Below, one piece after another: positions 9,160 to 61,773 of a stretch of DNA of 64,000 bases. How positions within the stretch are numbered: the stretch's first letter is position 1; each line of letters begins with the position of its first letter. A model generated the notes under the pieces. That model had not been told where the DNA came from, made no database searches, and was given only the letters and a program-made list of their open reading frames with translations. The DNA comes from Eledone cirrhosa (lineage: Eukaryota), in NCBI GenBank assembly GCA_964016885.1, contig OZ024741.1, forward strand, positions 171,306,001-171,370,000, read 5' to 3'. Both the position numbers and the translations under genes were made by a program.

Positions 9160-9164
9160 ACGTT

Positions 9165-10190
9165 CCCCTTGTCTTGCTAATGTGAGCCTCCTACGACTTT
9201 TGATGTCAGAAAGCCGTGTGAGTCATAGAGCGATTTCTTTGCTACGTGTGTTTCCTAGAATATATTCTGGATCTTTCTCAGCATTTCGGTGAATGTACCA
9301 TTAATCCTTTCAGTGAGTCTTTTTGACAGTGTCCATGATTCACATCCGTAGGGGAGAATGGACTCTACCATTGCTTTAAATAGCCTAATTTTTGTGGTTT
9401 TCTTGATCGGAGACACCCACACTTTTGATAGGGAGTTGAGAGTCCCCCGCCTTGCCTATCCTGGTGTCACCATCGTGCCCAGTGTTAAAAAAAAACTGCT
9501 AAGATGCAAGAAATCATCGACTTCCTCAATTTCCGAACCGTCCAGCGCAAGCATTTTTTTTTTTTTTTTTTTTTTACTTAGCATTAAGGTGCATAAATTA
9601 AATTTTACCAGCATGCAAGAAGAGTCCTATGAATAGCGCTGCAGCCACCGCTCTGTGTAGCAGGTTTTCAGCTTCTTTACAGGTGTTCTCCAGGAGAGCT
9701 ATGTAAGTTGCGTAAACCATTGCAGCTAGAGCTTCCTCCGGTTGTCGGGTACATTGTCGACTTTTCAGCATTATTCAGTTTGAAGGTACAATAACATTAT
9801 GCAGTGCATAAACGAGGCATATCACGAAAAGGACAGGGTTCAGAAGATATCCCTGGAGGACACCGGTATCAATGGTGAAAAAGTCTAAGCTTTCCTCGAG
9901 GGTCATCACAAGGGGTGAAGTATTCTCATGCATGACATTAATTGCATTCACGATCTAATGGAAGTATCACATAAGCGAGATGAATGAAATCACTGAATAT
10001 AATTACTGCTGCCTTCTTGTGATTTTGTACCTCCTCAACAAAACGACTAGAGCCAAGGGGTGTGAGGCAGTAAAGCGAAATGGTCAAAATCCTTTTCAGC
10101 TAGAACGTAGAGATTTGTCGGTACTTGCTCTGTTCCTATTCAAGACCCTCCTGTTGTAAATATTTGCTGCAATTTGCTTTGATGTAGATG
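9165..10190 (-). pseudogene. Decayed RTE-clade LINE reverse transcriptase
   Basis: Hand translation gives IAANIYNRRVLNR, EEVQNHKKAAVIIFSDF, FFTIDTGVLQG, EIEEVDDFLHL, KIRLFKAMVESILPYGCESWTL, with stops and frameshifts. Confidence 0.85.
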
Positions 10191-10247: not shown

Positions 10248-10282
<35 letters not shown>

Positions 10283-10464
10283 TAATTTAATATATCTACT
10301 AACATAAGCGCACAGATGTACGCTAATGCCAGCAAATACACAGGTTATGTCATAGTACCTAGGTGGTTCAATGCAGGAAGATGCAGAACAATAATATAAA
10401 AGACGTAAAATAAGAAAATTAAAAAAAAAAAAAATTTAAAAAAATGAACTTACTTAAATTTTCA

Positions 10465-10544
10465 CTCCAACTAATTAGTTTCTGCAATGGGATAAAGACA
10501 GTTACGTAATGAACTGTTGAGAATTTCATTGCGTCATCAGGGAG
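10465..10544 (-). ncRNA. Type I hammerhead ribozyme, family B
   Basis: Reverse complement of the 11406 motif. Confidence 0.85.
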
Positions 10545-11008
10545 ATCTATTCTCAGCCAAGTCTCCAGGCAATGCGCGGACACTGGGGACTCATATAAAA
10601 ATAATAATAATTCGGTAAATGGAACAGCTATCGAGGACTGGATTCCAGGCACTGAAAATTCTCACTGCCACTGGTCATATGGCCGATTCTAAAGAATCAA
10701 TCACGTGACACAGAGGCTAGTCAGTAGGAATGGAATGGTAAGATGACAGACGCCTACTAACACCCCCAAAAAAAATTTAGAAGTGGTTTTGGCTGGTTTG
10801 CTCGACAAATCAGTGATTTGGAGATAAATATAGATAATTTAATATATCTACTAACATAAGCGCACAGATGTACGCTAATGCCAGCAAATACACAGGTTAT
10901 GTCATAGTACCTAGGTGGTTCAATGCAGGAGGATGCAGAACAATAATATAAAAGACGTAAAAGAAAATTTAAAAAAAAAAAAAAAAAATTAACTTACTTA
11001 AATTTTCA

Positions 11009-11088
11009 CTCCAACTAATTAGTTTCTGCAATGAGATAAAGACAGTTACGTAATGAACTGTTGAGAATTTCATTGCGTCATCAGGGAG
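11009..11088 (-). ncRNA. Type I hammerhead ribozyme, family B
   Basis: Second minus-strand copy, 544 nt from the first. Confidence 0.85.
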
Positions 11089-11405
11089 ATCTATTCTCAG
11101 CCAAGTCTCCAGGCAATGCGCGGACACTGGGGACTCATATAAAAATAATAATAATTCGGTAAATGGAACAGCTATCGAGGACTGGGGTGTTAGTAGGCGT
11201 CTGTCATCTTACCATCCCATTCCTACTGACTAGCCTCTGTGTCACGTGATTGATTCTTTAGAATCGGCCATATGACCAGTGGCAGTGAGAATTTTCAGTG
11301 CCTGGAATCCAGTCCTCGATAGCTGTTCCATTTACCGAATTATTATTATTTTTATATGAGTCCCCAGTGTCCGCGCATTGCCTGGAGACTTGGCTGAGAA
11401 TAGAT

Positions 11406-11485
11406 CTCCCTGATGACGCAATGAAATTCTCAACAGTTCATTACGTAACTGTCTTTATCCCATTGCAGAAACTAATTAGTTGGAG
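11406..11485 (+). ncRNA. Type I hammerhead ribozyme, family B
   Basis: ctcc CTGATGA cgcaatg..(acagtt/aactgt)..cattgca GAAA ctaattag TT ggag. Confidence 0.87.
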
Positions 11486-11957
11486 TGAAAATTTAAGTAA
11501 GTAAGTTAATTTTTTTTTATTTTTTTTTTTATTTTCTTATTTTACGTCTTTTATATTATTGTTCTGCATCCTCCTGCATTGAACCACCTAGGTACTATGA
11601 CATAACCTGTGTATTTGCTGGCATTAGCGTACATCTGTGCGCTTATGTTAGTAGATATATTAAATTATCTATATTTATCTCCAAATCACTGATTTGTCGA
11701 GCAAACCTGCCAAAACCACTTCTAAATTTTTTTTGGGGGTGTTAGTAGGCGTCTGTCATCTTACCATCCCATTCCTACTGACTAGCCTCTGTGTCACGTG
11801 ATTGATTCTTTAGAATCGGCCATATGACCAGTGGCAGTGAGAATTTTCAGTGCCTGGAATCCAGTCCTCCATAGCTGTTCCATTTACCGAATTATTATTA
11901 TTTTTATATGAGTCCCCAGTGTCCGCGCATTGCCTGGAGACTTGGCTGAGAATAGAT

Positions 11958-12037
11958 CTCCCTGATGACGCAATGAAATTCTCAACAGTTCATTACGTAA
12001 CTGTCTTTATCCCATTGCAGAAACTAATTAGTTGGAG
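11958..12037 (+). ncRNA. Type I hammerhead ribozyme, family B
   Basis: Identical motif 552 nt downstream of 11406. Confidence 0.87.
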
Positions 12038-12096
12038 TGAAAATTTAAGTAAGTAAGTTCATTTTTTTTTTTTTTTTTTAATTTTCTTATTTTACG

Positions 12097-12147
<51 letters not shown>

Positions 12148-12151
<4 letters not shown>

Positions 12152-12680
12152 AAGTAACATGTAAAATGTTGCTTCGTTTATTATCAATTCTCTGCTATAT
12201 ATATTTCGGTGACAGCTATTATTGGCTGTGACCTCTTCACGCAGTACGAATTAATGTGGAAAAGACAGGTAAACATGTTGTTGAAATGTGTTCCACTCTG
12301 TTAATTCATCGATATGTCCAGCTCCTAGGTGTGTTGTTAATCCTCTGAGGAACTGGATATGAGTCCATTCCTCGGAGGACTAACAGCAACACACCCAGGA
12401 GCTGGACATATCGATGAATTAACAGAGTGGAACACATTTCAACAACATGTTTACCTGTCTTTTCCACATTAATTCGTACTGCCTGAAGAGGTCACAGCCA
12501 ATAATAGCTGTCACCGAAATATATATAGCAGAGAAATTATAATAAACGAAGCAAAATTTTAAATGTTTGACTTACTTACTTTACATTACTCCGGAGTAAA
12601 CAAGCCAACCTGTGTACTTCGTGGAGTTCTTCAATCTGCATACTGAGGTGTCGGTAAACAATCAACATATACTAAAATAT
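12148..12680. mobile_element. Family C inverted (hairpin) element
   Basis: Arm 12148-12350 is the reverse complement of ~12370-12582; the right arm has an extra ~95-bp tail; degenerate hammerhead (GTGAAGA) on the left arm at 12192-12244. Confidence 0.85.
12479..12531 (+). ncRNA. Type I hammerhead ribozyme, family C
   Basis: ctgc CTGAAGA ggtcacagc..gctgtcacc GAAA tatata TA gcag. Confidence 0.9.
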
Positions 12681-16832: not shown

Positions 16833-17985
16833 GTAATAATAATAAATTTGAAGACTAAAATCCAAAGAGGGCTCGATAAGGATAAATATATATCAAATAT
16901 ATAAGAACCGTAGAGCAAATATTTATTAAAATAACAGATTAAATTTTAAGCAAAGAATCGCTGCTTTCACCCTTAACGGGATCTTCTGAAACTAACAAAG
17001 TCAATCTGTAAACGCAGAATTGAATATTTCAAAAACGTTGCAACCGGAGGAAAACAGAAAGACGATACTTTGGTTCGTGGGAACTTTCCCTGGCAAAGAA
17101 CGGGAAAAAACGAATATAATACGTCATTAATAGGAGCGGTGAAAAACAATTACACGCAAAGACCGAACCACGTTTATGGTATAAAAGAAGTCGTAGACTA
17201 ATGTTCTCTTAGGAGGTTCATAGAGACGTTCTCTGGCAATGAACGGAAAAAATGAAGGTACTACGTCATATGTGGAGCGTGGAGAACAATTGCACGCAAA
17301 GACAAAACCACGTAAATGGTATAGCAGAAGTCGTAGACTAAAATTCTAACTAGGACTTCTGTATTGTATTTATTTACTTTGTTCTTAACTCTGAAGCGGA
17401 GATTCATTCGGTCGCCTAGTTGTCTGTTGGAAAGGTACGAAACGTGTCCTCCGCTGATCGTTGTTTTGAATATCTGAGATATTCAGCAGAGCTTGAGCGC
17501 GTGAAATGGGGTCGGTCAAGCAGAGGTTGGCGGCCGAAATAGTTCGTTCAATTGTGGGAGTGGAGTGGCGTTAGCTGTCAGTCCATTGCATTATCTGCGC
17601 TGTTGAATGTGTGTGGTTGTGATAATAGTTACTGTGTGTGTGTGTGTGCGCGTGTGTTGTTGTCTCGCTTGAGTGTGTGTGTGTGTGTGTGCGCGTGTTG
17701 CTGCCTCGTTCGTCTGTATTAGCAGTGTAGTATGTTCGTGTGGTGGAATGCTACTGTGTGTGTGTGTGTGTGCGTGTGTTGCTGTCTCGCGTGTGTGTGT
17801 GTGTGCGTGTGTTGTTGCATCGTTTGTTTACTTAAACCAACCATCTCATTTCGCTTCTCTCGGATCGGTTGTTTCTTTATGGCCCTAGGCGTTTGATCCA
17901 AAGTGCTTCCTTGATTCTTAATGTGCCGACGTTTCTTTCTGTCGCAAGAATTGTGACAATGGGCCTTCCGTCTTTGTTTCCGCAT
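16833..17985 (-). mobile_element. Penelope-like element 3' remnant (GIY-YIG C-terminus plus pLTR-like end)
   Basis: ILATERNVGTLRIKEALWIKRLGP matches the GIY-YIG R..E..I..P motif; the terminal segment recurs inverted at 49515-49685. Confidence 0.65.
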
Positions 17986-20939: not shown

Positions 20940-20995
20940 ACTGCCTGATGAGGTCACAGCCATTCAATGGTTATCATCGAAATATATATACCAGT
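20940..20995 (+). ncRNA. Type I hammerhead ribozyme, family C variant
   Basis: actgc CTGATGA ggtcacagcca..tggttatcatc GAAA tatata TA ccagt (one stem I mismatch); inverted partner at 21894-21947 has a 2-nt core deletion. Confidence 0.75.

Positions 20996-21806: not shown

Positions 21807-21810
<4 letters not shown>
21054..21810 (+). mobile_element. Family G repeat, tandem ends with ~645-bp period
   Basis: CCAACGACTTTTTTTAGCCGTTGCTCGCACC..CACTGATGAAGGAC at ~21054 and ~21699; also at ~46455-46655 and ~60625-60810. Confidence 0.8.
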
Positions 21811-21849
<39 letters not shown>

Positions 21850-21998
21850 TGACGAAACATAAGTCAATTGCATGAACTCATAATCCTTTATTTACTGCTA
21901 TATATATTTCGATGATAGCCATTAAATGGCTGTGACCATCAGGCAGTTAGTCAGTTCTTAGATATGCCAGCTCTGAGCTTATGGTGTTGATGTTATCA

Positions 21999-43610: not shown

Positions 43611-43663
<53 letters not shown>

Positions 43664-43719
43664 GTGAGGTTTTTTTTACAAATTGAAAAATAACCGAGGT
43701 GTCCATTCACGAGTGAAAG

Positions 43720-44010
43720 TATAAAGAAAAAGAGATGAAATCGAAAATGCAACTGGAGTCTTATTTTTAAAAAAAATATATATATTTATTTGGTTCCTTT
43801 ACCGGTTTCGCAGTTCTTCTGCTTTTCAAAAGGTGAGTTGAGATGGAGGGTCTGTTGTTTTTCTCAGATGTGAAAAAAACCACAGACCCTCCATCTCAAC
43901 TCACCTTTTGAAAAGCAGAAGAACTGCGAAACCGGTAAAGGAACCAAATAAATATATATATTTTAAAAAAAAATAAGACTCCAGTTGCGTTTTCGATTTC
44001 ATCTCTTTTT

Positions 44011-44015
<5 letters not shown>
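43720..44015. mobile_element. Family M inverted pair with core-mutated hammerheads (43796-43833 minus, 43904-43941 plus)
   Basis: cctt TTGAAAA gcag aagaa ctgc GAAA ccgg TA aagg; all three stems intact, core differs from CTGANGA at two positions. Confidence 0.7.
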
Positions 44016-49519: not shown

Positions 49520-49692
49520 ACAGATTAAACTTTAAGGCAAAGAATCGCTGCTTTCACTCTTAACGGGATCTTCTGAAACTAACTATTTTAATAAATATTT
49601 GCTCTACGGTTCTTATATATTTGATATATATTTATCCTTATCGAGCCCTCTTTGGATTTTAGTCTTCAAATTTATTATTATTACTATATATA

Positions 49693-50074
49693 TAAAATAA
49701 AGTTAAATAAAAAGTCAAATATTTAAAATTTAGCTTCGTTTATTACTGCTATATATATATTTCAGTGACAGCCATCTTTGGCTGTGACCTCTTCAAACAG
49801 TCCGAATTAGTGTGGTATAGACAAGTACATATGTTGTTGAGGTGTATAATTTTGTCAATACTCTGATATGCCCAGTTCCTGGTTGGGTTGTTATTTCACT
49901 GAGGAACTGGAATAAACTGAGGAGCAGTAATAAACGAAGCTAAATTTTAAACATTTGACTTTTTATTTAACTTTATTTTACATTACTCCGGAGTAACCAA
50001 AACAACCTGCGCACAACGTCGAGTGCTCCAGCCTGCTTTCTGAGGTATGGTATACAACCAACATATACTCAAAA

Positions 50075-50075
<1 letters not shown>
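49693..50075. mobile_element. Family C inverted element; degenerate hammerhead at 49745-49801 (minus)
   Basis: TTGAAGA ggtcacagcc..ggctgtcact GAAA tatatata TA gcagt; the right arm starts at 49923. Confidence 0.82.
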
Positions 50076-51829: not shown

Positions 51830-53050
51830 TTACTGTTGTTATTGTGTGTTGTTGTTGATGTTGTTGTTACTGTTGTTATTGTTGTTAGTGTGTGTTGTTG
51901 TTGATGTTGTTGTTGTTACTGTTGTTAGTGTTGTTGTTACTGTTGTTACTGTTGTTAGTGTGTGTTGTTGTTGATGATGTTTTTACTGTTGTTAATGATG
52001 TTAGTGTGTGTTGTTGTTGTTGATGTTGTCGTTACTGCTGTTAGTGTTGTTAGTGTGTGTTGTTGTTGTTGATGTTGTCGTTACTGCTGTTAGTGTTGTT
52101 AGTGTGTGTTGTTGTTGATGTTGTTGTTACTGTTGTTAGTGTTGTTAGTGTGTGTTGTTGTTACTGTTGTTATTGGGTGTTGTTGTTGATGATGCTGTTA
52201 CTGTTGTTACTGTTGTTACTGTTGCTATTGTGTGTTGTTATTGTGTGTTGTTATTGTTGTTGTTGACGTTGTTACTGTTGTTATTGTGTGTTGTTGTTGG
52301 TGATGTTGTTGTTATTGTTGTTATTGTGTGTTGTTATTGTTGGTGATGTTGATGTTACTATTGTTATTGTTGGTGGTATTGTTGTTGTTGTGTGTTGTTA
52401 TTGTTGGTGATGATGATGTTATTGTTGTTATTGGTGATGTTGTTGTTATTGTTGTTATTGTGTGTTGTTGTTGTTAGTGATGATGATGTTATTGTTGTTA
52501 TTGTTGGTGGTATTATTGTTATTGTTGTTGTTGTGTGTTGTTATTGTTGGTGATGATGATGTTATTGTTGTTATTGTTGGTGATGATGATGTTATTGTTG
52601 TTATTGTTCGTGATGTTGTTATTGTTGACGTTGTTACTGTTGTTATTGTGTGTTGTTATTGTTGATGATGATGTTACTGTTGTTATTGTTGGTGATGTTG
52701 TAATTGTTGTTGTTGTGTGTTGTTATTGTTGGTGGTGTTGTTATTGTTGGTGATGATGATGTTACTGTTGTTATTGTTGGTGATGTTGTTGTTATTGTTG
52801 TTGTGTGTTGTTATTGTTGGTGGTGTTGTTGTTGGTGATGATGATGTTACTGTTGTTATTGTTGGTGATGTTGTTGTTATTGTTGTTGTTGTGTGTTGTT
52901 ATTGTTGGTGATGATGATGTTACTGTTGTTATTGTTGGTGTTATTGTTGTTACTGTTGTTATTGTTGATGTTACTGTTGCTACTATGTCGATGTTGTTGG
53001 TGATGACGTTGTTAATGTTGTTATTGTTTGTTGTTATTGTCGGTATGGAT
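51830..53050. repeat. Compound (GTT/GAT/ATT)n microsatellite
   Basis: Direct sequence. Confidence 0.95.
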
Positions 53051-53089
53051 GTTGTTATTGTGTATTATTGTTGGTGTTGTTGTCAATGT

Positions 53090-56000
53090 TATTACAGTAG
53101 CTGCAGTTGTTATTGTCAAATGTTTTGTTGCAGCTGCAATTGTTGTTGTTGTTGTTACATATGTTGCAGCATCAGCATCTGTAGTTTTTGTTGTTGTTAC
53201 ATCTGTTGCAGCTGCAGTATCTGTAGTTGTTGTTGTTGTTGTTAAATATGTTGCAGCTGCAGTATCTGTAGTTGTTGTTGTTGTTGTTGTTGTTACATAT
53301 GTTGCAGCTGCAGTATATGTAGTTGCTGTTGTTACATCTGTTGCAGCTGCATTATCTGTAGTTGTTGTTGGTGTTACATCTGTTGCAGCTGCAGTATCTG
53401 TACTGGTTGTTGTTGTTGTTACATCTGTTGCAGCTGCAGCATATGTAGTTGTTGTTGTTACATCTGTTGAAGCTGCAGCATCTGAATGTGTTGTTGTTGT
53501 TGTTACATTTGTTGCAGCTGCAGTATATGTAGTTGTTGTTGTTGTTACATCTGTTGAAGCTGCAGCATCTCTAGTTTTTGTTGTTGTTGTTGTTACATCT
53601 GTTGCAGCTGCAGCATATGTAGCTGTTGTTGTTGTTACCTCTGTTTCAGTTGCAGTATCTGTAGTTGTTACATATGTTGCAGCTGCAGAATCTCTAGTTG
53701 TTATTGTTGTTACATCTGTTGCAGCTGCAGTATCTCTAGTTGGTGTTGTTGTTACATATGTTGCAGCTGCAGTATATGTAGTAGTAGTGGTTGTTGTTGT
53801 TACATCTGTTGCAGCTGCAGCATATGTAGTTGTTGTTGTTACATCTGTTGCAGCTGCAGTATCTGTAGTTGGTGTTGTTGTTACATATGTTGCAGCTGCA
53901 GTATATGTAGTAGTAGTGGTTGTTGTTGTTACATCTGTTGCAGCTGCAGCATATGTAGTTGTTGTTGTTACATCTGTTGCGGCTGCAGTATCTGTAGTTT
54001 TGGCTCTGTTGTTACATCTGTTGCAGCATCAGTATCTGTAGTAGTTGTTGTTGTTGCTACATCTTTTGCAGCTGCAGTATCTGTAGTTGTTGTTGTTGAT
54101 GTTACATATGTTGCAGCTGCAGCATTGGTAGTTGTTGTTGTTACATCTGTTGCAGCTGCAGTATCTGTAGTTGTTGTTGTTACATCTGTCGCAGCTGCAG
54201 CATATGTAGTTGTTGTTGTTGTTACATCTGTTGCAGCGTCTGTAGATGTTGTTGTTTTTACATCTGTTGCAGCTGCCCCATATGTTGTTGTTGTTCCTTC
54301 TATTGCAGCTGCAGTATCTGTAGTTGTTGTTACATCTGTTGCAGCTACAGTATTTGTAGTTGCTACTGTTGTTACATCAGTTGCAGCTGCAGCATATGTA
54401 GTTGTTGTTTTTGTTACATCTGTTGCAGTTGCAGTATCTATTACTGTTGTTCTTACATATGTTGCAGCTGCAAAATATGTAGTTGTTGTTTTGTTACCTC
54501 TGCAACTGTAGTTGTTGTTGTTACATCTGGTGCAACTGCAGTATCTGTAGTTGTTTTGTTGTTGTTACATATGTTGCAGCTGCAGTATCTGTAGTTGTTG
54601 TTGTTGTTACATCTTTTGCAGGTGCATCATCTGTATTTGTTGTTGCTATTACATATGTTGCAGCTGCAGTATCTGTAGATTTTGTTGTTGTTACATATGT
54701 TGCAGCTGCAGTATCTGTAGTTGTTGTTGTTACATCTGTTGCAGCTGCAGTATCTGCAGTTGTTGTTGTTGTTGTTACATCTGTTACAGCTGCAGTATTT
54801 GTAGTTGTTGTTGTTACATATGTTGCAGCTGCAGTATCTGTAGTTGTTGTTGTTGTTACATATGTTGCAATTTCAGTATCTGTAGTTGTTATTATTGTTA
54901 CATCTGTTGCAGCTGCAGTATCTGCAGTTGTTGTTGTTGTTGTTACATCTGTTACAGCTGCAGTATTTGTAGTTGTTGTTGTTACATCTGTTGCAGCTGC
55001 AGTATCTGCAGTTGTTGTTGTTGTTGTTACATCTGTTACAGCTGCAGTATTTGTAGTTGTTGTTGTTGTTGTTACATCTGTTACAGCTGCAGTATCTGCA
55101 GTTGTTGTTGTTGTTGTTACATCTGTTACAGCTGCAGTATTTGTAGTTGTTGTTGTTACATCTGTTGCAGTTGCAGTATATGTAGTTGTTGTTGTTGTTG
55201 TTACATATGTTGCAATTGCAGTCTATGTAGTTGTTATTGTTGTTACATATGTTGCAGCTGCAGTATCTGTAGTTGTTGTTGTTGTTACATCTGTTGCAGC
55301 TGCAGTATCTGTAGTTGTTGTTGCTGTTACATCTGTTGCAGCTGCAGTATCTGTATTTATTGGCGTTGTTGTTGTTACATCTGTTGCAGCGGCAGCATCA
55401 GTAGTTGTTATTCTTGTTACATCTTTTGCAGCTGCAGTATGTGTAGTTGTTGTTGTTGTTACATATGTTGCAGCTGCAGCATCTGTAGTTGTTGTTATTG
55501 TTACATCTTTTGCAGCTGCAGTATGTGTAGTTGTTGTTGTTGTTACATATGTTGCAGCTGCACCATCTGTAGTTGTTGTTATTGTTACATCTGTTGCAGC
55601 TGCAGCATCTCTAGTTTTTGTTGTTGTTACATCTGTTGCAGCTACAGTATATGCAGTTGTGTTGTTGTTATTACATACGTTGCAGCTGCAGTATCAGTAT
55701 ATGTTGTTCTTGTTACATCTGTTGCAGCTGCAGTATCTGTAGTTGTTGTTGTTGTTACATATGTTGCAGCTGCAGTATCTGTAGTTGTTTTTTTGTACAT
55801 GTGTTGCAGATGCAGTATCTGTAGTTGTTGTTGTTGTTGTTGTTACATCTGCTGGAGCGGCAGTATCTGTAGCTGTTGTTGCTTTTACATATGTTGCAGA
55901 TGCAGCATCTGTAGTTATTTTTACTTTTCTTGTAGCTGCAGCATCTGTAGTTGTTGTTGTTTCAGTTACATGTTGCAGCTGCAGCAGCTGTAGTTTCTGT

Positions 56001-56800
56001 TGTTACATCTGATGCAGCTGCAGCATCTGTAGTAGTAGTTGTTGTTGTTGTTACTCTTGTTGCAGCTGCAGCATCTGTAGTTGTTGGTGTTACTTTCGTT
56101 GCAACTGCTCCATCTGTATTTGTTGTTGTTGCAGTTACATCTGTTGCAGCTGTAGCATCTGTATTTATTGTTGTTACTTTTGTTGCAGATGTAACATTAT
56201 TAGTTGTTGTTGTTGTTACTTTTGCTGCAGATGCAGCATCTGTACTTGTTGCAACTACAGATGCTGCATATATTATTGTTGATACTACTGTTGGTGCAAG
56301 GGCATTAAATACTGTTCTTGTTGTTACTGTTGTTTCAACTGCCGTAGTTGTAGTAGTTGCTACTGTTTCTGTTGTTGCAACTGTAGTAGTTGTTGGTGTT
56401 ATACTTTTTTGCAACTGCAGTTCTTATTGGTGTTGCAGTTGTTAGAACTAAAGTGACTGCAGTTATTGCTGTTTTTGTTACTGTTGTTGTTGCAACTACC
56501 GCAGTTGCAGTTGTTGCTTTTGCAACTACAACAGCTGCAGTTGTTGTTGTGTCTCTTATTGTAGCTACAGCAGATGTAGCTATTGCTGTTGTTATGCTTG
56601 TTGCATGTATAGCAGGTGTAGCTGTTGTTGTTACTATTATTACAGTTATAGAATATGTAGCTGTTAGTGTTGTTACGCATGTTGCAAGTACAGTAGATGT
56701 AGTTGCTGTTTTTGTTGTTGTTACGCTTGTTGCTGTTGCAACTGAAATTGTTGTTGTAACTGCAGCAGCTGCAGCTGTTTTTATCATTATAATTGTTGTT
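53090..56800. repeat. ~33-45-bp minisatellite (GTT)n-ACATCTGTTGCAGCTGCAGTATCTGTA, decaying toward 56800
   Basis: Many tens of units, each centred on TGCAGCTGCA. Confidence 0.93.
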
Positions 56801-58724: not shown

Positions 58725-58859
58725 TGTTGCTGTTGCTGTTGTGCTGTTGCTGATGTTACTACTACTACTACTACTACTACTACTATAACTACTGCTGCTG
58801 CTGCTGCTACTACTACTACTATTAATGCTGCTGCTGCTGTTGTGCTGTTGCTGATGTTA

Positions 58860-58894
<35 letters not shown>

Positions 58895-59035
58895 ACTACT
58901 ACTACTAATGCTGCTGCTGCTGTTACTGATGTTGCTGATGTTACTACTACTACTACTACTACTACTGCTGCTGCTGATGCTGCTACTACTACTACTAACG
59001 CTGCTGCTGCTGTTGTGCTGTTGCTGATGTTACTA

Positions 59036-59076
<41 letters not shown>

Positions 59077-59125
59077 AGTTCTGCTGCTGCTACTACTACT
59101 ACTACTGTTGCTGCTGCTGCTACTG

Positions 59126-59157
<32 letters not shown>

Positions 59158-59175
59158 GTTGCTGCTTCTGCTGCA
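58725..59175. repeat. (CTG)n/(CTA)n compound microsatellite
   Basis: Direct sequence. Confidence 0.95.
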
Positions 59176-59571: not shown

Positions 59572-59644
<73 letters not shown>

Positions 59645-59654
<10 letters not shown>

Positions 59655-59834
59655 CGTAAAATAAGAACATTTTAAAAAAATTAAAAAAATTAACTTACTT
59701 ACTAAAATTTTAGTAAGTTAATTTTTTTAATTTTTTTTTAATTTTCTTATTTTACGTCTTTTATATTATTGTTCTGCATCCTCCTGCATTGAACCACTTA
59801 GGTACTATGACATAACTTATATATTTGCTAGCAT
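59645..59834. mobile_element. Family B fragment, again inverted
   Basis: AAAAGACGTAAAATAAG..AACTTACT / AGTAAGTT..TTTACGTCTTTT..GGTACTATGACATAAC. Confidence 0.8.
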
Positions 59835-61117: not shown

Positions 61118-61365
61118 TATCTTCTACTTCTTCTTCGCCCACTTATTCCTGAGAGGGCGTGGGGACAGAGTCCTCAATTACACCTTTCACAAATATATAT
61201 ATATATATATATATATAGATTTTGAGTTTATGTTGGTTGTATACCAACACCTCAGTATGCAGGCTGGAGCACTCGACGAAGTGCGCAGGTTGGTTTGGTT
61301 ACTCCGGAGTAGTGTAAAATAAAGTTAAATAAAAGTCAAATGATTAAAATTTAGCTTCGTTTATT

Positions 61366-61420
61366 ACTGCTATATATATTTCAGTGACAGCCATCTTTGG
61401 CTGTGACCTCTTCAGGCAGT
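61366..61420 (-). ncRNA. Type I hammerhead ribozyme, family C
   Basis: Reverse complement of the 61597 motif, within inverted element 61218-61701. Confidence 0.9.
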
Positions 61421-61596
61421 TTGAATATTTGCTAGCATGTGCATGTCTGACATGCCTGGTCTAACCAGTTTCAAAATTTATATGACTCCAGTTCCCCAGT
61501 GAATTAACAACCCAGCAAGGAACTGGGCATATCAGAGTATTGACAATATCATACACCTAAACAACATATGTACTTGTCTATACCATACTAATTCAA

Positions 61597-61651
61597 ACTG
61601 CCTGAAGAGGTCACAGCCAAAGATGGCTGTCACTGAAATATATATAGCAGT
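61597..61651 (+). ncRNA. Type I hammerhead ribozyme, family C
   Basis: actgc CTGAAGA ggtcacagcc aaagat ggctgtcact GAAA tatata TA gcagt. Confidence 0.9.
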
Positions 61652-61773
61652 AATAAACGAAGCTAAATTTTAATCATTTGACTTTTATTTAACTTTATTT
61701 TATATATATATATATATATATATAAATAAAAGATCAGAGACCATATTCACTTGATTCAGGTTTATTTAAAACT

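What the first reader, a model, noticed from the sequence alone, without database searches (positions are those of the whole stretch)
10277..12105. Four-ribozyme cassette: two tandem hammerheads on each strand, ~550 nt apart
Intact family B hammerheads lie at 10465(-), 11009(-), 11406(+) and 11958(+). Transcription of either strand would pass two cleavage sites and could release a 544-552-nt monomer with ends suited to circularisation. The 8-nt palindromic stem III (CTAATTAG) would let the tandem pair act as a dimer. Copies are almost identical, implying one recent event. The predicted cleavage triplet is GUU.
Basis: partly seen in the sequence, partly recalled or inferred. Interest (0 to 1): 0.85.

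Follow-up and report, generated by a model that had tools for sequence, protein, structure and literature searches.

The report
Two-armed insertion of a hammerhead retrozyme
The four ribozyme motifs are real, but they belong to one head-to-head insertion of a 552-base non-coding mobile repeat that has thousands of copies in this genome and is likely copied by Penelope-like retrotransposon enzymes, so the 'cassette' is an ordinary by-product of a known kind of element.

Summary
Observation confirmed: four type I hammerhead motifs, two per strand, with predicted cut sites 544 and 552 nt apart, a GUU triplet and a palindromic helix III. They are not a special cassette. They are the units of one insertion of a 552-nt non-coding tandem repeat (4,343 exact copies of a 25-nt ribozyme motif genome-wide), sitting in an (AT)n microsatellite as two head-to-head arms. 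Of 50 loci, 36 are inverted and arm lengths vary freely; 2 have two or more ribozymes on both arms. In 32 of 33 classifiable inverted copies one arm ends at a 'short' site and the other about 120 nt further on. A 72%-identical sister family (12 of 13) and an ORF-bearing Penelope-like family (14 of 14) follow the same rule. This is the known Penelope 'tail' and fits two-ended priming. No RNA run is listed, cleavage is untested, and no homologous autonomous partner was found. The scan saw similar ribozyme-free repeats in two other genomes. Verdict: a new non-LTR retrozyme family of a known kind.

The parts
10252..10278 (.). (AT)n, left half of the target microsatellite
   Evidence: 78 of 86 family 3' ends abut (AT)n
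10279..10766 (-). left arm, outer unit (U1 to about U490), ending at the 'long' end (with tail)
10465..10544 (-). hammerhead motif 1 (core at 10540, predicted cut after 10469)
10767..11185 (-). left arm, inner 5'-truncated unit (U126-552)
11009..11088 (-). hammerhead motif 2 (core at 11084, predicted cut after 11013; one private C>T giving a G-U pair in helix II)
11184..11185 (.). head-to-head junction of the two arms, about 2 nt of microhomology
11184..11735 (+). right arm, inner full 552-nt unit (reference unit U); non-coding, 37% GC
11406..11485 (+). hammerhead motif 3 (core at 11410, predicted cut after 11481)
11736..12102 (+). right arm, outer unit (U1 to about U373), ending at the 'short' end (no tail)
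11958..12037 (+). hammerhead motif 4 (core at 11962, predicted cut after 12033)
12102..12147 (.). (TA)n, right half of the target microsatellite

Best explanation
10279-12102 is one insertion of a young, high-copy, non-coding 552-nt tandem repeat with a type I hammerhead motif in each unit (a non-LTR retrozyme), laid down as two head-to-head arms in an (AT)n microsatellite, likely by a Penelope-like RT/GIY-YIG enzyme priming from both cut strands. SHOWN: the unit, its copy number, the (AT)n target, the head-to-head geometry, one short and one long 3' end per insertion, one haplotype per insertion, and the same signature in an ORF-bearing Penelope-like family of this genome. INFERRED: (1) a tandem copy is transcribed; (2) the hammerheads cut, perhaps as a dimer through the 12-nt palindrome, and the monomer is ligated to a circle (about 55%; otherwise an uncut multimer is the template); (3) the enzyme cuts both strands of (AT)n and each 3' end primes reverse transcription at one of two internal start sites, near U373 and near U490; (4) each cDNA runs a variable distance, here about 920 nt and so past two ribozymes; (5) the two cDNAs are joined at their far ends by microhomology. 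Four ribozymes result whenever both arms happen to exceed about 1.3 units.
For: Copy number: 2,478 + 1,865 exact matches to a 25-nt ribozyme motif, reversed control 0; the 40 scored of 1,790 candidates are 99-100% identical. Geometry: the first 100 matches form 58 clusters; all 15 mixed-strand clusters are head-to-head (p=6e-5); same-strand spacing is 538-594 nt. Ends: of 50 loci, 36 are inverted: 32 short+long, 1 long+long, 3 unclassifiable (p=8e-9 for 32 of 33); 78 of 86 3' ends abut (AT)n. Sister family B (526-nt unit, 72% identical along the unit): 19 of 30 loci inverted, 12 short+long, 1 short+short, 6 unclassifiable. ORF-bearing family (938-aa RT + GIY-YIG; 12,324 copies of its ribozyme motif): 14 short+long, none like+like, 3 unclassifiable among 17 inverted pairs that I counted by eye; its short end lies 92 nt after GAAA, against about 88 nt in U. 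Template longer than one unit: 24 of 86 arms cross the cut site two or more times, and 5' ends do not pile up there (2 seen, 2.0 expected). One template: discordance 1.8% within an arm, 1.0% between arms, 26.5% between loci. The head-to-tail joint is present in three DNA or unlabelled data sets, including raw reads of another sample. Helix II covariation; predicted circle z=-5.1 against 60 shuffles. Literature: tandem/inverted structure, tail at one end and (TA)n bias (PMC8557442); two internal RT start sites, both strands cut and extended, predicted dimer (PMC11167929).
Against: No autonomous partner homologous to the unit was found: 8 Penelope-like 3' regions and 3 upstream regions scored 30-48.5 against shuffle maxima of 34-46.5, with family B as positive control at 456. 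The two unit-like hits among 50 GIY-YIG loci (L069, L048) look like separate insertions into (AT)n. Only 50 of 10,596 GIY-YIG candidates were examined. The tail here is about 120 nt, against 30-40 nt in print. Against the circle step: L138 joins two subfamily haplotypes in one arm (11 of 14 sites differ); in the window the two outer units share one letter near U325 and the two inner units another, as a linear dimer template would give (one site, beside a slippery run). Ribozyme folds cost about 10 kcal/mol over the minimum in the 801-nt arm. In print, a Penelope hammerhead was dispensable for insertion in vitro (PMC11167929) and 8 of 9 Xenopus dimers did not cleave (bioRxiv 2026.07.22.740005). 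32 of the 50 loci were picked by likeness to the window, so frequencies are biased to young copies.
Confidence: 0.86

Rival explanations
1. Same element and enzyme, but the ribozyme is idle or regulatory: uncut linear multimers are the template and tandems are rebuilt by template jumping. This is a variant inside the best explanation, not an alternative to it.
For: No 5' ends at the cut site; the L138 hybrid arm and the rank-shared letter in the window; weak GUU triplet (recalled) and mismatch at the base of helix II; PMC11167929 found unprocessed RNA to be the main substrate.
Against: Compensated helix II across families 19-28% diverged points to selection on the fold; the whole unit has stayed intact and in register in two families; the predicted circle is well folded.
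Confidence: 0.38
2. A functional bidirectional four-ribozyme cassette that releases monomers from both strands.
For: All four motifs are intact and correctly spaced; the palindrome could form a 10-bp dimer helix (-11.4 kcal/mol).
Against: Ribozyme numbers per arm range freely from 0 to 3, and 2+2 or more occurs at other loci (L111, and one cluster at C1:68.97 Mb); a read-through RNA is predicted to be one hairpin; nothing marks this locus as special.
Confidence: 0.04
3. Two independent insertions into one microsatellite, or a later DNA-level inverted duplication.
For: (AT)n tracts are hotspots: other hammerhead repeats sit right beside this one (12148-12577, 12790).
Against: No (AT)n lies between the arms; they share one haplotype (0 of 148); they end at different fixed sites, which a duplication would not give; tail-to-tail pairs were never seen (0 of 50).
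Confidence: 0.05
4. Assembly chimera (fold-back artefact).
For: No listed piece in the four short-read sets spans the locus-specific junction at 11184-11185 (19 of 877 pieces shown).
Against: The arms differ by substitutions and indels and are offset, not mirror images; the same architecture with different junctions occurs at 36 of 50 loci and obeys a rule; PMC3846280 reports such structures as real.
Confidence: 0.03

Closest known systems
Non-LTR retrozymes of animals (PMC7229834; bioRxiv 10.64898/2026.07.22.740005)
   Same: Non-coding, low-GC tandem units, each with a type I hammerhead; thousands of copies; palindromic helix III; co-occurrence with Penelope-like elements; unit size within the 51-972 nt range of the preprint.
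   Different: Longer than the 150-450 nt of PMC7229834; long two-part helix II; frequent head-to-head inversion and fixed short/long ends, which I did not see described for retrozymes in the parts read; circles not shown here; no homologous pLTR found.
Penelope-like elements with RT and C-terminal GIY-YIG (Neptune type) and their pLTR hammerheads (PMC8557442, PMC4209133, PMC3846280)
   Same: Partial tandems, inverted 5'-truncated copy, tail at one end, (TA)n target; hammerhead with short helix I, long helix II, extra base between positions 9 and 10.1, G10.1-C11.1 and a palindromic helix III; opposite-strand motif pairs 100-700 bp apart were already noted in PMC4209133.
   Different: No ORF; tail about 120 nt rather than 30-40; an extra unpaired A before GAAA; the unit itself is the propagating entity.
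Poseidon element PAc of Anolis, reconstituted in vitro (PMC11167929)
   Same: Two internal RT start sites bounding the tail; AT-rich target; both strands cut and extended.
   Different: There the start sites are adjacent and non-homologous to the target; here they are about 120 nt apart and each ends in a short TATA-like match to (AT)n.
Viroid-like circular RNAs with ribozymes in both polarities (recalled)
   Same: Hammerheads on both strands at unit spacing, superficially.
   Different: The unit has a ribozyme in one polarity only; the second polarity is an inverted DNA copy.

Membership tests
Type I hammerhead ribozyme | CUGANGA and GAAA core, NUH triplet | tested here: met
   CUGAUGA, GAAA and GUU in all four copies
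Type I hammerhead ribozyme | three helices, with compensatory change | tested here: met
   helix II 6 bp, 3 pairs changed on both sides; helix I 4 bp plus extension; helix III 2 bp
Type I hammerhead ribozyme | match to an Rfam hammerhead model | tested here: not met
   (261 nt, E<=10): no hammerhead; the long helix II probably falls outside the models (inference)
Type I hammerhead ribozyme | self-cleavage | not testable with these tools
   needs run-off transcription
Non-LTR retrozyme | at least two tandem units, each with a complete type I motif | tested here: met
   both arms; spacing 538-594 nt elsewhere
Non-LTR retrozyme | non-coding, GC under 50% | tested here: met
   longest stop-to-stop frame inside the element 82 aa; no hit to 10 Penelope-like proteins within it; GC 37%
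Non-LTR retrozyme | expressed as linear and circular monomer RNA | not testable with these tools
   no RNA holder listed
Non-LTR retrozyme | highly self-paired predicted circle | tested here: met
   -139.4 kcal/mol, 62% paired, z=-5.1 (prediction only)
Non-LTR retrozyme | no LTR, PBS or PPT | not tested
   architecture is tandem, not LTR-like; PBS and PPT were not searched
Penelope-mobilised non-autonomous element | partial tandem plus head-to-head inverted 5'-truncated copy | tested here: met
   36 of 50 loci; 15 of 15 mixed clusters
Penelope-mobilised non-autonomous element | tail at one end only | tested here: met
   32 of 33; length about 120 nt, longer than described
Penelope-mobilised non-autonomous element | (TA)n target bias | tested here: met
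   78 of 86 3' ends
Penelope-mobilised non-autonomous element | homology to the pLTR of an autonomous element | tested here: inconclusive
   none found in 50 GIY-YIG loci of 10,596 candidates
Autonomous Penelope-like element | RT plus GIY-YIG ORF | tested here: not met

The most novel reading that the evidence does not exclude
The insertions record a two-ended mechanism: a Penelope-like enzyme dimer cuts both strands of (AT)n and primes two cDNAs at two fixed sites on one RNA, one start site per strand, rolling round a ribozyme-made circle. The one-short-one-long rule (58 of 60 classifiable inverted copies in three families, one of them ORF-bearing) would then be in vivo evidence that animal retrozymes are mobilised by Penelope-like enzymes without sequence homology, and would explain the tail and the head-to-head inversion as a single event.
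Probability: 0.5. Interest if true: 0.58.

Novelty: new member of a known kind. Interest (0 to 1): 0.32.

Why it matters
The locus itself is ordinary: one of thousands of copies of a retrozyme family. The family is a usable model, though. It is young, abundant and uniform, and its ends follow a strict rule shared with an ORF-bearing Penelope-like family that has an intact-looking 938-aa frame in the same genome. Two open questions could be tested directly with it: which enzyme moves animal retrozymes, and why Penelope insertions carry head-to-head inversions with a tail at only one end.

Tried and rejected
Rfam scans gave no hammerhead; the miRNA hits are microsatellite hairpins. A family accession recalled from memory is not in the library held; PF01541 was used. 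Partner search: 50 GIY-YIG loci by blastn, 30 family B loci, 30 family A loci and the window by tblastn, and 42 more family A loci showed no unit continuous with an ORF; the ORF at L125/L126 is a neighbouring element on the other strand. Sequencing runs: no RNA holder listed. The one RNA-guess run laid (X17) gave 3 short matches under 90% alike and is uninformative. Short-read contigs neither confirm nor refute the junction at 11184-11185, and the best holder may be the assembly's own sample. An excess of 5' ends at U325-359 (21 seen, 5.5 expected) is probably in part an alignment artefact of the variable T/A run and was not used. B-box-like words were found but no convincing Pol III promoter. 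No target-site duplication can be read inside (AT)n. Literature: 'retrozyme + inverted + twin priming' gave 0 papers; searches listed none whose title or abstract start states the short+long rule, but closed-access papers and supplements were not seen. Earlier notes by place and by sequence gave nothing. I did not identify the organism.

Full report
1. Observation. The region holds four near-identical hammerhead motifs: cores at 11410 and 11962 on +, 11084 and 10540 on -. Each reads helix I (4 bp), CUGAUGA, an unpaired C, a 6-bp helix II with a long inner hairpin, an unpaired A, GAAA, a palindromic helix III and the triplet GUU. Predicted cuts are 552 nt apart on + and 544 nt apart on -. The palindrome is 12 nt. 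Rfam does not recognise the motif, and the isolated 116 nt fold no better than shuffles. The evidence for a ribozyme fold is comparative: across 18 sequences (12 distinct) from three subfamilies, 3 of 6 helix II pairs change on both sides, and 92.5% of cells pair against 38-50% in slid controls. The inner hairpin was misaligned for family B in that count (72% paired). Activity is untested.

2. Anatomy. Take U = 11184-11735 (552 nt, 37% GC, no frame over 82 aa). The right arm is U1-552 then U1-373. The left arm, on -, is U126-552 then U1 to about 490. The arms meet head-to-head at 11184-11185 with about 2 nt of microhomology, and both outer ends run into (AT)n.

3. It is a large young family. 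The window lies in a 3.0-Gb assembly. A 317-nt query has 1,790 candidates, and the 40 scored are 99-100% identical. A 25-nt ribozyme motif occurs exactly 4,343 times, the reversed control 0 times. The first 100 of these, in position order, form 58 clusters: 30 single, 13 same-strand tandems and 15 mixed. All 15 mixed clusters are head-to-head, and one is 2+3. Among 50 non-overlapping loci (32 found by likeness to the window, 18 from the position list; overlapping duplicates and L021, which looked like a duplicate of L018, were dropped), 36 are inverted. Complete ribozymes per arm range from 0 to 3; two loci, the window and L111, have two or more on both arms. The 'cassette' is one draw from that distribution.

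4. The ends follow a rule. 78 of 86 3' ends abut (AT)n. The ends fall at a short site (about U373) or a long site (about U477-511). Of the 36 inverted loci, 32 have one of each, 1 has two long ends and 3 could not be classed; none is tail-to-tail (p=8e-9). A sister family with a 526-nt unit, 72% identical along its length, gives 12 short+long, 1 short+short and 6 unclassed among 19 inverted of 30 loci. The genome is rich in GIY-YIG sequences (10,596 candidates). [quoted passage not shown] I call them Neptune-type from the linker motif described in PMC8557442; no tree was built, and Nematis shares the linker. The 938-aa family has a hammerhead with the U3-A8 core variant, then a T/A run, a short end 92 nt after GAAA and a long end 63 nt later, into (AT)n. 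Its motif has 12,324 exact copies. In the first 30 matches (23 loci after overlaps) I count 17 inverted pairs: 14 short+long and 3 unclassed. One such pair lies in this window at about 43656-44015.

5. Template. Units of one insertion share a haplotype: discordance at 36 shared polymorphic sites is 1.8% within an arm, 1.0% between arms and 26.5% between loci, and 0 of 148 for the window. The exceptions are L116 (a second insertion), L138 (a hybrid arm) and one site in L121. 24 of 86 arms cross the cut site at least twice, and 5' ends are not enriched there. The template was therefore longer than a cut monomer: a circle or an uncut multimer. For the circle: the conserved fold, the conserved unit and a predicted circular structure at z=-5.1. 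For the multimer: L138, one letter shared by rank in the window, and published in vitro results. I put the circle at about 55%.

6. A transcript through the whole insertion meets the antisense arm first. It is predicted to form one hairpin holding 79 of 80 and 80 of 80 ribozyme bases, so it would more likely be double-stranded RNA than a source of monomers. For the right arm alone, the minimum-energy fold already pairs the two palindromes with each other, but fully formed monomer or dimer ribozymes each cost about 10 kcal/mol more. The dimer idea is plausible and unproven.

7. What is missing. No autonomous element homologous to U was found in the 50 GIY-YIG loci examined. No RNA run is listed. 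The head-to-tail joint is seen in three data sets, among them raw reads of another sample, but no listed piece spans this locus's own inversion junction. The family, or parts of it, is held by runs under several other organism codes at shares of 0.03-0.29; of these only X17 was laid.

8. Comparison with print. PMC7229834 (passages and section 14 read) defines non-LTR retrozymes, shows circles and dimer-dependent cleavage, and proposes Penelope-like elements as the mobiliser. bioRxiv 10.64898/2026.07.22.740005 (parts 1-3 of 5 read; supplements not seen) supports that by co-occurrence and pLTR homology. PMC4209133 (parts 1-2 of 4) describes the ribozyme type, the U3-A8 variant, opposite-strand pairs and the circle model. 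PMC8557442 and PMC3846280 (passages) describe tandems, head-to-head inversions, the one-ended tail and the (TA)n bias. PMC11167929 (parts 1-2 of 4) shows two internal start sites and extension of both strands. The parts are all known. What I did not see stated (listings only, apart from the papers named) is the strict pairing of one short with one long end, and its use to tie a retrozyme to Penelope enzymes.

9. Verdict. Real, correctly described and mostly ordinary: a new family of a known kind. Interest 0.32; the end rule is the part worth following.

Noticed in passing
window 12148-12577: A second head-to-head pair of another hammerhead repeat family sits directly beyond the right (TA)n; related copies at about 61197-61733, 49656-50075, 21810-21947 and 20940-20994.
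   Followed up: partly
window 2964(-), 12790(-), 50310(-), 29596(-)/30077(+), 43129(+), 57451(-), 61415(-)/61602(+): At least five other hammerhead-like repeat families occur in this 64-kb window by a pattern scan; the genome appears saturated with them.
   Followed up: no
window about 43656-44015; L061, L062: Inverted pair of the 3' end of an ORF-bearing Penelope-like family whose hammerhead has the U3-A8 core variant; one long and one short end; 12,324 exact motif copies.
   Followed up: yes
window 59604-59834: Short, older inverted fragment of the same family as the finding, beside (AT)n 59575-59649, without the ribozyme core.
   Followed up: partly
window 11508-11535 and the same place in every unit: The T/A run just after the cut site varies even between units of one insertion, swapping T for A at roughly constant total length; slippage during reverse transcription, later instability or assembly error could each explain it. 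The Penelope-like family has a similar run at the same place.
   Followed up: no
window 10279; L010, L013, L023, L025, L118: Long ends often carry a (TC)n stretch of variable length between the unit and (AT)n, as if the first few template bases were copied repeatedly at initiation, telomerase-like.
   Followed up: no
window 11243-11248 (U60); L061 3' region: A CACGTG E-box lies upstream of the ribozyme in the unit, in family B and in the Penelope-like 3' region; a possible internal promoter element.
   Followed up: no
L156-L182: In the ORF-bearing family many inversion junctions cluster about 50-60 nt upstream of GAAA, and four arms begin within about 6 nt of the predicted cut site; not tested for significance.
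   Followed up: no
window 51834-56716 and 58789-59174: Long TGT-rich and 42-nt-period tandem arrays with strong strand skew, and a CTG array; possibly repetitive coding exons on the - strand.
   Followed up: no
window 9161-10160 and 17859-17984: Frames resembling a decayed LINE-type RT fragment left of the element (my recollection of the motifs), and a weak hit to a Penelope-like protein near 17.9 kb.
   Followed up: no
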